Origin: Octopus vulgaris
Taxonomy: Eukaryota
DNA length: 64,000 bases
Direction of reading: 5' to 3'
Assembly (NCBI GenBank): GCA_951406725.2
Contig: OX597836.1
Location: 38,006,001-38,070,000, forward strand
The first letter of the stretch is position 1. Every line of letters begins with the position of its first letter. Of the stretch, positions 40,301-64,000 are shown piece after piece. The position numbers are program-made.

Positions 40301-43300
40301 GTCCAGTTGAATTCCGTTAGTATTTAATATGAATGGCATGTGTTGCTCTTTGTTGTTTGTACAATTGTTCTGATATTTTCCATGTGCCGTGAAAAAGAAT
40401 ACCAAACAGTGGGTTATTTTGATTTATTTCATTGAATCTTTAAGAGAAATAATTGACTTTTAAAAGAGGTCCTGATAAAGCATCTGCAAGAGTATAATGT
40501 TACGTGTGCTTATATGTGGTAATAAATGCAAGTAGAAACAATTCTATAGTGATGAAATATTGTTGTCTATTGTTTACATGGTGACACTGAGTAAAGTTTC
40601 CAAATTGAAATGGAAGCTTGAGACATTGTGTGTTGGATATTAATTCACAAAAAAGATGGTAAGAAAAAGAAATACCTATGAATAAATGCTGCTTTAATGA
40701 GCAATCTGCAAATACATGCTACTTGACAAACATTAAATGATAACAATGTTGGTGAAAATTATTGAATTATAATAACTGTGCTGTGTTTTAATGGACATTA
40801 CATTTTGTGATTGGATATTTGAATTTTTTCATGTATTTGAGAAATTCTGCTTCATTATGATATCATAGATTGAGTAAGGAAATATCTGTGTGGTGTTTTC
40901 AATGTTGTCATGGTTGTGTGGGTTTGGTTTTCTATGAGTCTATTTTAGATCATACATGTTATGTTTCTGGAATAATTTTATACTTTCCTTGAAATTGCAT
41001 GAGGATAATGATAATTATCAATATGTATGGAATTGACAATGATGTTTGACATTTTTCTTGCCTTTTTCCACTTTACAGTAAGGCCCAAAATAACGGATTC
41101 ACATTCGAAGCCACCTGGTAAGACATTTCGAATGTATTGCTTTTGGTTTTGTTAGTCTAAAATTAGATAGTTTGTGTGTAGGGATGTAATAACAATTACT
41201 AAAGTAAATAAGTCCTAAATAAGAGAAAGTGTATCAGAATGTAGTTGTTAGTGATCGTTCATTTATGTGGTTATAGTGTTTAGGTTATCTTCTTGAATGA
41301 ACACCTATGTTAAATTATTATGTATGTGTCAGTGTTAATTGATGGCTACCTTCCTATTCTTTAGGTCGTTTAGGACCTATTCTTTAGGTCCTTAGTCAAT
41401 TGTCTGTGCAGTTGTGCAAGCTGCAATTCATGTTTACCTGGTTGACACTTTTGTATTTTTTTAATTGTCTATTTGAATTTTGTAAGTGTTTAATATCAAT
41501 GACATTTGTTGCTCACTGTCGTTTGTACAATTGTTGTGTTATCTGCTGTGTGCAATGAAATGGTATGTCAGCAGTCTGTCATTTTGATGTTATTCATTGA
41601 ATCTTAAAGAGAAAGAATTAACATAAACTTTTAAAGAATACTTGGCATCATCATGAGAATAATGTTATGTTTGCGTTTATGTAACAATAAATGTAAATAG
41701 AAATAATTGCATAATTATGAAATATTCTTGTATGTTGTTCACGTGGGGACACTGAATAGAGTTTGCAAAACGATATAAGAAGGAATAGTAGCAGTGTGTC
41801 AGTTTGATGTTTTTCATTGAATCATAAAGAGAAATCACTGAGAAGAAAGAATAAGATGTATTGAATTTTGTTAGTATTTAATATGAATGATATTTGTTGT
41901 TCTTCCTTGTTTGTACATTTCTTCTGATATCTACTGTATGCGGTGAAAAGTTGTTGCAGCAGTGTGTCCTTTTGCTGTTGTTCATTGAATCTCATAGGGA
42001 AATAATCAACTTTAACAAGAAACAACATAGTATGTTGAGGAATACATTGCATCCGAATGAGTATAATGTTATGTGTGCGTATTTGTGGCAACAAATGCAA
42101 GTAGAAACAGTTGTATACTTACGAAATACAGTTGCGTGTTCTTCAGATGGTGACACAATAAGTAAAGTTTGCAACACACGGAATAGACATTAATTCACAA
42201 AAAAGATGGTTAGAGAAAAAAATACTTATGAATAAATGCTGCTTTAATAAGCACTCTGCAAATATCTTCCACTTGACAAACTTCAAAGTATAACTATCGA
42301 GTTTACAGCTATTGAGTTATAATAATTGTGCTGTGGTTTATCTGTCATTAAATTTTGCCTTTGGATATTTGAAGTTGTTCATGTGTTCAAAAAATTATGA
42401 TTCATGACAACATCATAAATGGGTGATGAAAGTTCTGTGTGGTGATTTCAATGTTGTCATGGTTGGGTAAGTTTGGTTTTCTAACAATTTGTTCTAGATA
42501 GTAGATGTTACTTTGTGGAATGGCTTTATATTGCAGTTTGTTACTTGAAATTGAAATGGTATTTTCTATTAGTGAAAATAGATTATTGTGTATAGACACT
42601 TGATTGTCACTGTAAGTTATTTCGAATGTATTGGTTTTAGTTTTGTTATCTACTGTAAATTAAGCTAGGGCCCATGTAAAAATGTAATTGCAATTACTAA
42701 AGGGAATGAGACCTAATTAAAGGAATGTATTTGTTAGTGGTCTTTAGCTTGTGCGATTAATGTTTATAGGTGTATAGGTGTTGATGTTCAATGAACCACT
42801 ATATTGAATTATTATGTATGCGTCAGTGTTAATTGATGGCTGCCTCCTTTTTGTTTAGGTCGTTGCAATACTGCTGAATCAGACATTGTGTTTGTTCTGG
42901 ATTCTTCAACTAGCGTTACTGATGCAAACTTCCAGAAAATATTAGCTTTCATGAAAGATTTTCTGTCGGATGCTAGTATTGACTCGGGTAATGTTCGAGT
43001 GGGGGCAGTGATTTATAGCACTGATGTAGAGGTGCAGTTTCATTTGAATCGCTACAGTTCCAAGCGTGATATCCTCGATGCTGTTGACAACATTGCCTAT
43101 GTGTATGGAAGCACAAATACATATGGAGGTCTGCACACAGCCAGAACACAGATGTTCACTGCAGAAAATGGTGACAGAGCCGGTGTTCCTAACATCATTT
43201 TCCTCATAACTGATGGCGTTTCCAACGTCAATGCTTTGCAAACGATACCAGAAGCGGAGGCTATTCGTGCAGAAAACATCCATATTTACGCTATAGGTAT

Positions 43301-61300: not shown

Positions 61301-64000
61301 ATATTGAATTATTATGTATGCGTCAGTGTTAATTGATGGCTGCCTCCTTTTTGTTTAGGTCGTTGCAATACTGCTGAATCAGACATTGTGTTCGTTCTGG
61401 ATTCTTCAACTAGCGTTACTGATGCAAACTTCAAGAAAATATTAGCTTTCATGAAAGATTTTCTGTCGGATGCTAGTATTGACTCGGGTAATGTTCGAGT
61501 GGGGGCAGTGATTTATAGCACTGATGTAGAGGTGCAGTTTCATTTGAATCGCTACAGTTCCAAGCGTGATATCCTCGATGCTGTTGACAACATTGCCTAT
61601 GTGTATGGAAGCACAAATACATATGGAGGTCTGCACACAGCCAGAACACAGATGTTCACTGCAGAAAATGGTGACAGAGCCGGTGTTCCTAACATCATTT
61701 TCCTCATAACTGATGGCGTTTCCAACGTCAATGCTTTGCAAACGATACCAGAAGCGGAGGCTATTCGTGCAGAAAACATCCATATTTACGCTATAGGTAT
61801 AGGCCTTGCAGAAACTACAGAACTCGACAAAATTGCATCATCTCCAGCAAGCGCTAACAGTTTCACTGTGGAAGATTTTAATGAGCTTCAAGGCTTAAAA
61901 CACACGATATTTGAATCTTACTGTCCCGGTACGTATATCTCGAAGAATATTACACCTGTCATCGTCCTCGTCGAAGTTGTCGTCGTTCCTTTGAATGGGG
62001 TGAACGTCTTGAGGTTGTAGCGTTTTCAGTTGTAAATGTTTGCTGTTTTGCACCTCATCTGTTTCCTTAGTGATCTGTTTACACAGCTGTGCAAGCTGCG
62101 ATTCTTGTTTACCTGGTTGATATTTTTGTAAATTCTTTATTGTGTGTTTGAATTTCTCTAGTGTTTAATATCAATGCTCTTTGTTTTCTGTACATTTGAT
62201 TTGATATCTGCTGATGCAGTGAAATGGAGTATGAGTTGTTTTGGTGTTATTCATTGAATCTAACAGAGCGATAATTGACTTTAAACAATAATTTTCATCG
62301 CCATGATTGTGATGTCACGTGTGTGTATATGCAGCAATGAATGCATGTAGAAACAATTGCGTAGTTCTGAAGTATTCCTGTTTGTCGTTTACATGGACAC
62401 AGTGTGTGAATTGTCTGAAAGGACAGAAAAAGTGTGAAAATATGGTGAGTTAATTCACAAGAAACATGATGGAGAAAAAGAAATACTTATGAATAAATGC
62501 TGGTTTAATGAGCCATCTGATATATGCTCCACGTGAGACAATTTAAATGATAAGTATGTCGTGAAAGTTATTGAAATTTAAGCATTGTGCTGTGTTTTAA
62601 CAAGCGGCATTACTTTTTGCGCTTGGATATTTACAGTTTTTCGTGTATTTGAAAGATTATGCTTGATTACGACATTGTAAAAGAATAATGAAAGTTGTTT
62701 CTGGTGTTTTCGATATTGTCGATGTTACGTAGGTTTGGTTTTTTATAAATCTGTTGTGTTTTTTGCTGAAATTTCTATGGAATATTGTTTTAGTGAAATT
62801 AAGTTGTTTTATATAGAAAATTGATTGTCACTATGTATGTAAGAGCAGAATAATAATTATCGGAATGTAGGAACTGACGATTAATTTGAAATTCCTCTTG
62901 CCATTTTGCACTTTTCAGTAAAGTCCACAGAAACGATTGTCGATCGAAAGCCACCCGGTAAGACATTTCGAACGTATTGATTTTGGTTTTGTTACCTAGT
63001 GTAAAAGAAGGCAGGGCCCGTGTAGAAATGTAATTACAATTACTAAAGGGAATGAGACCTAATTAAAGGAATGTATTTGTTAGTGGTCTTTAGCTTGTGC
63101 GATTAATGTTTATAGGTGTATAGGTGTTGATGTTCAATGAACCACTATATTGAATTATTATGTATGCGTCAGTGTTAATTGATGGCTGCCTCCTTTTTGT
63201 TTAGGTCGTTGCAATACTGCTGAATCAGACATTGTGTTCGTTCTGGATTCTTCAACTAGCGTTACTGATGCAAACTTCAAGAAAATATTAGCTTTCATGA
63301 AAGATTTTCTGTCGGATGCTAGTATTGACTCGGGTAATGTTCGAGTGGGGGCAGTGATTTATAGCACTGATGTAGAGGTGCAGTTTCATTTGAATCGCTA
63401 CAGTTCCAAGCGTGATATCCTCGATGCTGTTGACAACATTGCCTATGTGTATGGAAGCACAAATACATATGGAGGTCTGCACACAGCCAGAACACAGATG
63501 TTCACTGCAGAAAATGGTGACAGAGCCGGTGTTCCTAACATCATTTTCCTCATAACTGATGGCGTTTCCAACGTCAATGCTTTGCAAACGATACCAGAAG
63601 CGGAGGCTATTCGTGCAGAAAACATCCATATTTACGCTATAGGTATAGGCCTTGCAGAAACTACAGAACTCGACAAAATTGCATCATCTCCAGCAAGCGC
63701 TAACAGTTTCACTGTGGAAGATTTTAATGAGCTTCAAGGCTTAAAACACACGATATTTGAATCTTACTGTCCCGGTACGTATATCTCGAAGAATATTACA
63801 CCTGTCATCGTCCTCGTCGAAGTTGTCGTCGTTCCTTTGAATGGGGTGAACGTCTTGAGGTTGTAGCGTTTTCAGTTGTAAATGTTTGCTGTTTTGCACC
63901 TCATCTGTTTCCTTAGTGATCTGTTTACACAGCTGTGCAAGCTGCGATTCTTGTTTACCTGGTTGATATTTTTGTAAATTCTTTATTGTGTGTTTGAATT

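What the first reader, a model, noticed from the sequence alone, without database searches (positions are those of the whole stretch)
42600..64000. Intragenic array of at least 12 near-identical VWA+linker exon cassettes: a 'polymer' adhesion/ECM protein whose length may be tunable
Seen: each 1846-1859 bp unit has a 570-nt VWA exon and a 39-nt linker exon, adding 609 nt (203 aa) in frame. The 12 VWA domains are identical except for one Q/K site, the introns are almost equally identical, and no TE has inserted, unlike the TE-packed 5' introns. Known: multi-VWA proteins such as collagen VI alpha3 and matrilins normally carry strongly diverged domains. Inference: very recent expansion or ongoing concerted evolution gives a beads-on-a-string protein with many identical metal-dependent binding sites (high avidity), with copy number likely polymorphic. 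It could be a lineage-specific glue, mucus, egg-coat, sucker or skin matrix protein; the function is not shown by the sequence.
Basis: partly seen in the sequence, partly recalled or inferred. Interest (0 to 1): 0.85.

Follow-up and report, generated by a model that had tools for sequence, protein, structure and literature searches.

The report
Octopus gene with 12 near-identical VWA cassettes
An octopus matrix-protein gene carries at least twelve almost identical two-exon cassettes, each adding one metal-binding VWA adhesion domain in frame; similar arrays appear in gene models of many other animals, so it is a clean example of a recurrent pattern and not a new kind of thing.

Summary
From 42859 to the window's end there are 12 VWA exons of 570 nt and 11 linker exons of 39 nt. 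All are phase 1-1 with identical splice sites. They sit in units of 1846-1859 bp that differ by 0-18 events (mean substitution divergence 0.34%). The only amino-acid difference is Q in units 1-5 and K in units 6-12.

Unit differences grow with distance along the array and are enriched for CpG transitions, so the copies look like real DNA and not assembler noise. The exact copy number cannot be verified here.

The domain is a canonical VWA (Pfam E 1e-46; AF2 pLDDT 92) with an intact MIDAS motif and terminal cysteines. Its nearest structures are collagen-binding VWAs: integrin alpha1 I domain, PTMP1 and COL6A3.

The window comes from an Octopus species. An upstream VWA exon is 98% identical to O. 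bimaculoides 'collagen alpha-3(VI)', whose RefSeq models stop before the array, so the transcription unit is unproven.

Of 160 multi-VWA relatives, 33 have adjacent VWAs at 95% identity or more, with runs of 12 (Lineus) and 11 (a pipefish).

Function and length tuning remain inference.

The parts
2060..2626 (+). VWA-A exon (567 nt, phase 1-1), diverged, MIDAS degenerate (..HISEN..)
   Evidence: Pfam VWA E 2.2e-33. Splice sites. 98% identical to O. bimaculoides XP_052831933, whose model confirms the acceptor and then reads through the donor to the stop at 2638-2640.
21358..21906 (+). VWA-B exon (549 nt, phase 1-1), diverged, MIDAS Asp lost, C-terminal part weak
   Evidence: Pfam VWA E 2.4e-19, profile 1-150 of 174. 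Splice sites. A direct join from VWA-A would create TAA (own reading).
38060..38629 (+). VWA-C exon (570 nt, phase 1-1), older relative of the array exon
   Evidence: Pfam VWA E 4.2e-45. 87.8% nt and 84% aa identity to the array exon, dN/dS 0.27. Pairs with O. bimaculoides A0A0L8FYL2 in the tree at 100/100.
39598..41342 (+). Decayed unit D: VWA pseudo-exon (about 39598-40085) with several stops and its 5' end lost
   Evidence: 71% identity to unit positions 103-1846. Stops in all frames of the N-terminal half.
41079..41117 (+). Linker-like exon D' (39 nt, open, phase 1-1, cag|TA..G|gtaaga), likely bridge from VWA-C to array unit 1
   Evidence: Alignment to the array linker with conserved splice flanks.
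41389..42611 (+). Partial decayed unit E (intron sequence only); its linker exon is deleted
   Evidence: Blastn pieces at 67-77% identity. Unit positions 1497-1621 are missing.
42612..64000 (+). Homogeneous array block: 11 full units and 818 nt of unit 12, running off the window
42859..43428 (+). VWA exon 1 (Q form)
44431..44469 (+). Linker exon 1
44717..45286 (+). VWA exon 2 (Q form)
46290..46328 (+). Linker exon 2 (one synonymous G>A)
46576..47145 (+). VWA exon 3 (Q form)
48149..48187 (+). Linker exon 3
48435..49004 (+). VWA exon 4 (Q form)
49996..50034 (+). Linker exon 4
50282..50851 (+). VWA exon 5 (Q form)
51843..51881 (+). Linker exon 5
52129..52698 (+). VWA exon 6 (K form)
53689..53727 (+). 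Linker exon 6
53975..54544 (+). VWA exon 7 (K form), used as query in all searches
55535..55573 (+). Linker exon 7
55821..56390 (+). VWA exon 8 (K form)
57381..57419 (+). Linker exon 8
57667..58236 (+). VWA exon 9 (K form)
59227..59265 (+). Linker exon 9
59513..60082 (+). VWA exon 10 (K form)
61073..61111 (+). Linker exon 10
61359..61928 (+). VWA exon 11 (K form)
62919..62957 (+). Linker exon 11
63205..63774 (+). VWA exon 12 (K form); its linker would lie beyond the window

Best explanation
This is a real intragenic tandem array in an Octopus genome. A 1.85-kb unit holding two phase-1 exons (one whole VWA domain plus a 14-residue spacer) has been amplified at least 12 times. It is kept almost uniform by unequal crossing-over and gene conversion between neighbouring units, while older copies at the 5' edge (VWA-C, unit D, unit E) have escaped and diverged or decayed.

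If spliced as the sites predict, the array adds at least 2423 residues of repeated, disulfide-closed VWA domains. Each domain carries a complete metal-ion-dependent adhesion site.

The most likely product is a secreted, multivalent matrix cross-linker of the molluscan 'collagen VI-like' VWA-protein group. It would bind a fibrillar partner such as collagen through many identical metal-dependent sites. In this kind of array the valency changes in whole 203-residue steps, by recombination in the germ line and possibly by in-frame cassette skipping.

Shown here: the anatomy, the homogeneity, the fold, the motif and the relatives.

Inferred: transcription and splicing, secretion, ligand, polymorphism.
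For: Anatomy and frame:
- 12 of 12 VWA exons and 11 of 11 linker exons are intact, with identical splice sites in phase 1.

The copies are real:
- Differences among the 11 full units rise with separation (Spearman 0.50; only 2 of 5000 permutations reach the observed correlation).
- Three length classes and the Q/K site lie in blocks along the array.
- 9 of 21 substitution columns are CpG transitions, although CpG makes up 6% of positions (p = 1.4e-6).

Edge decay:
- VWA-C is 87.8% identical in nt. Unit D is 71% identical and carries stops. Unit E is partial.

Coding constraint:
- dN/dS is 0.27 between the array exon and VWA-C.
- 1 non-synonymous against 3 synonymous differences within the array.

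Domain:
- Pfam VWA E 1.2e-46.
- AF2 pLDDT 92.4, pTM 0.90.
- Foldseek TM 0.87-0.91 to integrin alpha1 I domain, COL6A3 N2 and PTMP1.
- DxSxS, T and D align with those of PTMP1, whereas the COL6A3 domains shown lack parts of the motif.

Gene context:
- VWA-A is 98% identical to an O. bimaculoides protein with a signal peptide and two further VWAs upstream.
- No signal-peptide-like first exon was found between 2641 and 38059 by a crude scan. Its 3 candidates were all microsatellite translations.
- In cuttlefish, the VWA-A orthologue and a homogenised VWA array lie on one scaffold, six accession numbers apart.

Cassette skipping is modelled elsewhere:
- RefSeq isoforms of the pipefish protein differ by exactly one 195-aa VWA.
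- Haliotis isoforms differ by exactly one 41-42-aa EGF-like unit.
Against: - No transcript, read-depth or population data could be consulted, so expression, splicing, copy number and polymorphism are unshown.
- Both RefSeq isoforms of the O. bimaculoides orthologue (633 and 640 aa) end at VWA-A with intron read-through.
- A direct VWA-A to VWA-B splice would create TAA. The link between the secretory N-terminus and the array therefore needs an unseen exon or a VWA-A to VWA-C join.
- No gene model matching the array at more than 95% appeared in any protein search. The best were 95% and 90% single-exon ORFs on unnamed contigs, which read into the intron and are therefore genomic.
- At 0.34% divergence, intact frames would be expected even without selection, so intactness says little about function.
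- The exon-versus-intron difference in variability is weak (p = 0.06).
- The ligand is guessed from structural neighbours only.
Confidence: 0.6

Rival explanations
1. Assembly artefact: a much shorter array (one to a few units) was over-expanded, or two haplotypes were concatenated, by the assembler.
For: - Units are 99.2-100% alike, units 6 and 8 are identical, and the 818 nt of unit 12 equal unit 11. An array of more than 21 kb at this identity is hard to assemble.
- Four single-base indels sit beside or in short base runs and could be consensus errors.
Against: - Differences are ordered along the array (2 of 5000 permutations).
- There are three length classes in blocks.
- 9 of 21 substitutions are CpG transitions, a germ-line signature.
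- At least 9 distinct unit sequences exist among the 11 full units (matrix: only units 6 and 8 are identical).
- Comparable homogenised VWA arrays occur in independent assemblies of other species.
Confidence: 0.1
2. The array is real DNA but does not belong to a working gene. It would be a young, untranscribed or spliced-out duplication block downstream of a short three-VWA gene that ends at 2640.
For: - RefSeq isoforms X1 and X2 of the O. bimaculoides orthologue end at the VWA-A read-through stop.
- VWA-A to VWA-B makes TAA.
- The flanking units D and E are decayed.
- No annotated protein holding the array was found.
- The array is too young for intact frames to prove selection.
Against: - dN/dS is 0.27 against VWA-C, and VWA-C has an intact O. 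bimaculoides counterpart.
- Array-type exons at 90-95% identity are intact in other unnamed datasets.
- The splice sites and the 39-nt linker with its conserved flanks are kept even in the decayed unit D.
- The searches could not see proteins over 2000 aa by name. The representative library holds one protein per 50% cluster, so absence there is weak evidence.
- A cuttlefish model joins the VWA-A orthologue to downstream VWA sequence.
Confidence: 0.15
3. The protein is expressed but works differently from a collagen cross-linker. It could be a gel-forming component of skin mucus or an egg coat, a chitin or mineral matrix organiser, or a multivalent pattern-recognition molecule.
For: - VWFA-domain, 'collagen alpha-3 and 4' and 'cartilage matrix' proteins are listed in the O. 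vulgaris skin-mucus proteome (PMC11431876, passages read).
- Molluscan VWA proteins are abundant in nacre matrix and RNAi disturbs nacre (PMC5597905, passages read).
- The related O. sinensis LOC115223644 has a long Pro/Thr-rich mucin-like stretch after its homogenised VWAs.
Against: - No chitin-binding, mucin-like or lectin domain lies in the window.
- The mucus paper's accessions are in supplements that are closed, so identity with this gene is unknown.
- The nearest structures are collagen-binding or collagen-associated VWAs.
Confidence: 0.15

Closest known systems
N-terminal VWA array of collagen VI alpha3 to alpha6 chains (COL6A3-A6)
   Same: - A string of VWA domains. It is the best PDB sequence match (9han, E 1.4e-114 over several domains). 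The COL6A3 N2 fold matches at TM 0.90.
- Relatives are auto-named 'collagen alpha-3/4/6(VI)-like'.
- Terminal cysteine pair, as reported for the alpha4 to alpha6 chains (PMC3919171).
- One VWA per exon and alternative skipping of N-terminal VWA exons in COL6A3 (recalled, not from a call).
   Different: - The vertebrate domains are diverged: 26-39% between neighbours in P0017 and P0021.
- Most collagen VI VWAs lack a conserved MIDAS (PMC3919171; alignment), whereas here the motif is complete.
- No triple-helix exon lies in the window. The molluscan relatives listed carry no collagen Pfam domain, while the vertebrate hits P0017 and P0021 do.
LPA kringle IV type 2 coding copy-number repeat (human)
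   Same: A multi-exon unit of a few kb, repeated head to tail inside a gene and in frame. Exons and introns are nearly identical, and each unit adds one whole protein domain. In LPA the copy number is highly polymorphic and sets the protein's size (PMC6314250 and PMC11515395, abstracts seen in the listing).
   Different: The domain (kringle), the taxon and the function differ. Polymorphism is documented there and untested here. The unit is 5.5-5.6 kb against 1.85 kb.
Homogenised VWA arrays in gene models of other animals
   Same: - Runs of adjacent VWA domains at 95% identity or more, with identical spacers: Lineus longissimus XP_064632589 (12), Vanacampus margaritifer XP_077414909 (11), Haliotis rufescens XP_048237149 (7), Branchiostoma lanceolatum XP_066267485 (7), Sinanodonta woodiana KAL3854705 (6), Octopus vulgaris CAI9720130 (5) and the N-terminus of O. 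sinensis XP_036368516 (4).
- Isoforms differ by whole cassettes.
   Different: - These are separate expansions. Units cluster by species in the tree and are 32-65% identical to the window's domain.
- Their intron identity is unknown because only proteins were available.
- None of the literature searches run here found a description of such arrays.
Mussel proximal thread matrix protein 1 (PTMP1)
   Same: A molluscan secreted protein made of tandem VWA domains with MIDAS. It is the second-best PDB sequence match (E 2.8e-34) with DxSxS, T and D aligned, and the fold matches at TM 0.91. It is described as collagen-binding in the title of Suhre et al. 2014, seen only in the reference list of PMC5597905; the paper itself is not held.
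   Different: PTMP1 has two diverged VWAs, not twelve identical ones, at 27-28% identity. It is a byssus protein, and octopus has no byssus.

Membership tests
VWA domain (Pfam PF00092) | Significant match to the family profile over its full length | tested here: met
   E 1.2e-46, 159.5 bits against a cut-off of 23.8, profile positions 1-171 of 174.
VWA domain (Pfam PF00092) | Rossmann-like alpha/beta fold | tested here: met
   AF2 pLDDT 92.4 with alternating strands and helices. Foldseek TM 0.85-0.91 to solved VWA and I domains.
MIDAS-bearing VWA / integrin I-domain type | DxSxS, Thr and Asp metal-coordinating residues | tested here: met
   D14-S16-S18, the T in GSTNT and the D in ITDG align with the same residues of PTMP1. 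T85 and D118 are invariant in 37 relatives. The assignment of these residues as MIDAS is from established knowledge. Metal binding itself was not tested.
Collagen VI chains | Gly-X-Y triple-helical domain after the N-terminal VWAs | not testable with these tools
   The window ends inside the array, and no collagen-like ORF lies in bases 1-64000. The closest molluscan relatives carry no PF01391, whereas the vertebrate hits do.
Collagen VI chains | Tandem VWA domains, one per phase-1 exon | tested here: met
   Exon and phase structure. That collagen VI genes share this structure is recalled, not tested.
Matrilins | VWA plus EGF-like domains and a C-terminal coiled coil | tested here: not met
   No EGF or coiled-coil ORF lies in the window. 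Sequence downstream of 64000 is unseen, so this holds for the window only.
Coding multi-exon tandem repeat of the LPA KIV-2 kind | Unit of several exons repeated head to tail, in frame, each adding one domain | tested here: met
Coding multi-exon tandem repeat of the LPA KIV-2 kind | Introns as uniform as exons (homogenisation at the DNA level) | tested here: met
   Mean substitution divergence 0.34% over whole units. 22 events in 1237 intron nt against 4 in 609 exon nt.
Coding multi-exon tandem repeat of the LPA KIV-2 kind | Copy number varies between individuals and sets protein size | not testable with these tools
   No reads, second haplotype or population data were available.

The most novel reading that the evidence does not exclude
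Homogenised VWA cassette arrays are a recurrent device that has not been described in print. Many animal lineages (octopus at three or more loci, cuttlefish, abalone, unionid mussel, nemertean, amphioxus, Hydra, pipefish, skate) independently amplify one VWA exon unit. They keep it uniform so that the valency and reach of a matrix cross-linker can change quickly, in whole-domain steps. The change would come through copy-number alleles and through a splicing ladder made possible by identical phase-1 splice sites. In octopus the array would be one segment of a giant gene that continues into an LOC115223644-like region.
Probability: 0.2. Interest if true: 0.6.

Novelty: new member of a known kind. 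Interest (0 to 1): 0.4.

Why it matters
If expressed, the locus would be an invertebrate counterpart of LPA KIV-2: a protein whose size and number of binding sites are set by a recombining array of whole-domain cassettes. It offers a simple system for asking how valency tunes a matrix or adhesive material, and how concerted evolution acts on exons and introns together.

It also carries a practical warning. RefSeq models of the sister species stop before the array, so such arrays are probably under-annotated and mis-counted in cephalopod genomes.

The survey made here shows that near-identical VWA runs are common in gene models across animals (33 of 160 relatives examined). That corrects the textbook impression drawn from vertebrate collagen VI and matrilins.

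Tried and rejected
- TRF missed the array because its longest period is 500. The repeat finder found it.
- Independent single-VWA genes were rejected. No unit has an ATG or signal peptide ahead of the domain, and every exon is bounded by phase-1 splice sites.
- The antisense 131-aa ORF in every VWA exon has no Pfam family and is taken as a by-product of composition.
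- A separate gene start between VWA-A and VWA-C was sought. A crude signal-peptide and donor scan gave 3 candidates, all translations of microsatellites. This is weak negative evidence.
- tblastn with cuttlefish and octopus relatives found no further small exons upstream of the array.
- Rfam (0 matches) and ARAGORN (0 genes) found nothing in the window.
- Literature searches for octopus or cephalopod VWA arrays found no description of such an array. One search failed on term format.
- The PTMP1 paper is not held.
- Pfam on eight further upstream or antisense ORFs gave no family at E 0.01 or better; the one match, DUF5765 at E 0.013, is below its cut-off.
All searches were made exon by exon, so the geometry between cassettes was not modelled.
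The orthologous loci of other cephalopods could therefore not be read as DNA.

Full report
**Observation**

The window has no N. Direct-repeat analysis of 38000-64000 gives 12 copies of every 300-nt reference. They are spaced 1858, 1859, 1859, 1847, 1847 and then six times 1846 bp. TRF missed the array because its period limit is 500.

Stop-to-stop frames show 12 plus-strand ORFs of 227 aa that contain a VWA domain. Reading one unit and then all of them places the exons:
- The VWA exon is 570 nt, bounded by ttgtttag|GTCG and CCCG|gtacgt in 12 of 12 units.
- The linker exon is 39 nt, bounded by ttttcag|TAAAG and CCCG|gtaaga. It is present 11 times, 10 exact and one with a synonymous G>A. None was expected in 100 shuffles.
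- The twelfth linker would lie beyond base 64000.

Every boundary is phase 1, so one cassette adds 203 residues in frame, and any number of cassettes could be skipped without breaking the frame. The 12 VWA and 11 linker exons would encode 2423 residues. Q is in units 1-5 and K in units 6-12.

**How alike the units are, and whether they are real**

Among the 11 complete units there are 37 variable alignment columns, 12 of which are one 12-bp indel. That makes 26 events:
- 3 in the VWA exon (1 non-synonymous, 2 synonymous);
- 1 synonymous in the linker;
- 22 in the introns.

Pairwise differences run from 0 (units 6 and 8) to 18. Mean substitution divergence is 0.34%. The 818 nt of unit 12 equal unit 11.

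Three results argue that these are true separate copies and not assembler noise:
- Differences increase with distance along the array (Spearman 0.50; 2 of 5000 permutations reach the observed correlation).
- The length classes and the Q/K site form contiguous blocks.
- 9 of 21 substitution columns are C/T or G/A changes at CpG, which covers 6% of positions (p = 1.4e-6). This is the signature of germ-line methyl-CpG decay.

The exact copy number still cannot be checked without reads.

One feature is unexplained. 18 of the 22 intron events fall in 388 nt of the first intron, at unit positions 1133-1520 (Fisher p = 1.2e-6).

**Edges of the array**

Upstream of the uniform block lie older copies:
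- VWA-C (38060-38629) is 87.8% identical in nt and 84% in aa, and is intact.
- Unit D (39598-41342) is 71% identical. Its VWA exon has lost its 5' end and carries stops. It keeps an open 39-nt linker-like exon at 41079-41117 with conserved splice flanks.
- Unit E (41389-42611) is a partial intron copy in which the linker exon is deleted.

Identity rises to 100% at about 42700. This is the pattern expected when the core of an array is homogenised by unequal exchange and the edge units escape. dN/dS between the array exon and VWA-C is 0.27.

Two more diverged VWA exons, also phase 1-1, lie at 2060-2626 (VWA-A) and 21358-21906 (VWA-B). Both have degenerate metal-site residues.

**What the domain is**

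- Pfam gives VWA at E 1.2e-46.
- The best PDB sequence matches are collagen VI alpha3 (9han), mussel PTMP1 (4cn8) and integrin alpha I domains.
- An AlphaFold2 model built on 37 aligned relatives has pLDDT 92.4 and pTM 0.90.
- Its nearest solved folds are integrin alpha1 I domain, COL6A3 N2 and PTMP1, at TM 0.87-0.91.
- The DxSxS, Thr and Asp of the metal-ion-dependent adhesion site are present and align with those of PTMP1, while the collagen VI alpha3 domains shown lack parts of the motif. Becker et al. state the same for most collagen VI VWAs (PMC3919171, passages read).
- Each domain begins and ends with a cysteine (C2, C188; C188 is kept in at least 90% of the 37 relatives).

According to the same paper, such terminal cysteines close the domain with its two ends side by side. 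The beads-on-a-string layout of collagen VI alpha3 depends instead on a C-terminal extension. With a 14-residue spacer, the array is therefore more likely a chain of pendant closed domains.

I built no joined protein. All searches and the fold were made exon by exon, so the arrangement between cassettes was not modelled.

**Whose gene**

[quoted passage not shown] That protein has a signal peptide and two further VWA domains upstream, and its model confirms the acceptor at 2060. The window is therefore from an Octopus species; it is not human.

Both RefSeq isoforms (633 and 640 aa) end by reading through the donor at 2626 to the stop at 2638-2640. A direct VWA-A to VWA-B splice would create TAA (own reading). 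The paths VWA-A to VWA-C, and VWA-B to VWA-C to linker D' to the array, are open.

A crude scan found no signal-peptide-like first exon between 2641 and 38059. In cuttlefish, the VWA-A orthologue (CAE1248462) and a homogenised VWA array (CAE1248468) lie on one scaffold, six accession numbers apart. One transcription unit is thus plausible but unproven.

No protein search returned a model of the array itself. The best matches were 95% and 90% single-exon ORFs from unnamed contigs that run into intron sequence, and 84% for O. bimaculoides A0A0L8FYL2, which is 92% identical to VWA-C. Named searches were limited to proteins of up to 2000 aa, and the representative library keeps one protein per 50% cluster, so this absence is weak evidence.

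**Relatives and the claim of rarity**

The closest long relatives are molluscan multi-VWA proteins named collagen VI-like, COL6A or cartilage matrix protein. They are 56-66% identical and have no collagen Pfam domain.

I measured identity between neighbouring VWA domains in the 160 proteins with at least two full VWAs, out of the 166 proteins held. This set was chosen by total score and so is rich in multi-domain proteins. Of these, 33 have at least two adjacent domains at 95% or more, and 35 have a pair at 90% or more.

The longest runs, with names:

| Run of adjacent VWAs at 95% or more | Species |
|---|---|
| 12 | Lineus longissimus |
| 11 | the pipefish Vanacampus margaritifer |
| 7 | Haliotis rufescens, Branchiostoma lanceolatum |
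| 6 | Sinanodonta woodiana, Hydra vulgaris, Biomphalaria glabrata, Rhinoraja longicauda |
| 5 | Octopus vulgaris CAI9720130 |

The 5'-truncated O. sinensis LOC115223644 (4624 aa) starts with four identical VWAs that are 65% identical to the window's domain. A Pro/Thr-rich stretch, diverged VWAs and EGF-like modules follow.

A maximum-likelihood tree of 71 domains shows the following:
- It groups the window's array with VWA-C, the O. bimaculoides fragment and three unnamed ORFs (99/86).
- It pairs VWA-C with the O. bimaculoides fragment (100/100), so the split between VWA-C and the array unit is older than that speciation.
- Homogenised units cluster by species.
- The diverged domains of the O. 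sinensis and O. bimaculoides proteins pair one to one.

So near-identical VWA runs arise repeatedly.

RefSeq isoforms of the pipefish and abalone proteins differ by exactly one cassette. This shows that in-frame cassette skipping is at least modelled for such arrays.

**Function**

Nothing in the sequence fixes it. The best-supported guess rests on three points: the complete MIDAS, the nearest structures (collagen-binding integrin I domains, PTMP1, collagen VI), and what is reported for molluscan VWA proteins. These are abundant in nacre matrix, and RNAi against them disturbs nacre (PMC5597905, passages read). The guess is a secreted multivalent matrix cross-linker.

An octopus skin-mucus proteome lists VWFA-domain, collagen alpha-3/4 and cartilage-matrix proteins (PMC11431876, passages read). 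Its accession tables are in supplements I could not open, so a link to this gene is only a lead.

**Comparison and novelty**

In mechanism, the closest known case is the LPA kringle IV-2 repeat. It is a multi-exon unit repeated in frame, with uniform introns and a copy number that sets protein size (abstracts seen). In family, the domain is a canonical VWA of the collagen VI, matrilin and PTMP1 branch.

Six literature searches found no description of homogenised VWA exon arrays in cephalopods or elsewhere. The gene models above show that the pattern already sits in public annotation.

I therefore rate this as a new member of a known kind: a well-preserved example, interesting for concerted evolution and for annotation, but not a surprise to a specialist. 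Interest 0.4.

Noticed in passing
window 53953-55799 unit positions 1133-1520 (and the same stretch of every unit): Inter-unit variation is concentrated here: 18 of the 22 intron events fall in 388 nt (Fisher p = 1.2e-6). Some columns show mosaic patterns across units, as patchy gene conversion would give. No explanation was tested.
   Followed up: partly
window 42859-64000: 9 of the 21 substitution columns among units are transitions at CpG, which suggests germ-line CpG methylation of this gene body.
   Followed up: partly
window 2626 / 21358: Joining the predicted donor of VWA-A directly to the acceptor of VWA-B would create a TAA codon. RefSeq models of the O. bimaculoides orthologue end at the read-through stop at 2638-2640.
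   Followed up: partly
window 11367-12053 (minus strand): ORFs with a Pif1 helicase 2B-domain match (E 8.7e-7), probably a Helitron-type remnant in the intron between VWA-A and VWA-B.
   Followed up: partly
window 2900-4130, 8300-9580, 13130-13750: Large TA/TG/CA microsatellite blocks that translate into long YIYI/CVCV pseudo-ORFs on both strands.
   Followed up: no
window 7555-8006 and 19115-19564; 3-84 and 28970-29051; 4144-4270 and 20302-20428: Dispersed repeat pairs at 73-82% identity, probably interspersed elements. They were not classified.
   Followed up: no
window 30171-31265: Foldback element with nested inverted arms at 91-98% complementarity (MITE-like).
   Followed up: no
window 24028-24283: A 116-nt unit duplicated in tandem 2.2 times at 99% identity.
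   Followed up: no
window 5009-5312: Matches at 82% the transposon-like C-terminal tail that an older O. bimaculoides model (XP_014789615) appended after the VWA-A exon. That old model probably exonised a repeat.
   Followed up: partly
P0184 (O. sinensis XP_036368516) and P0009/P0179 (Acanthosepion pharaonis): A second cephalopod lineage of homogenised VWA units (65-67% identical to the window's) heads a 5'-truncated 4624-aa octopus protein. In cuttlefish it lies near the VWA-A orthologue. It may lie downstream of this window in the same locus; this was not tested.
   Followed up: partly
window 54058-54453 minus strand (and each unit): A 131-aa antisense ORF inside every VWA exon. It has no Pfam family and is taken as a composition by-product.
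   Followed up: yes
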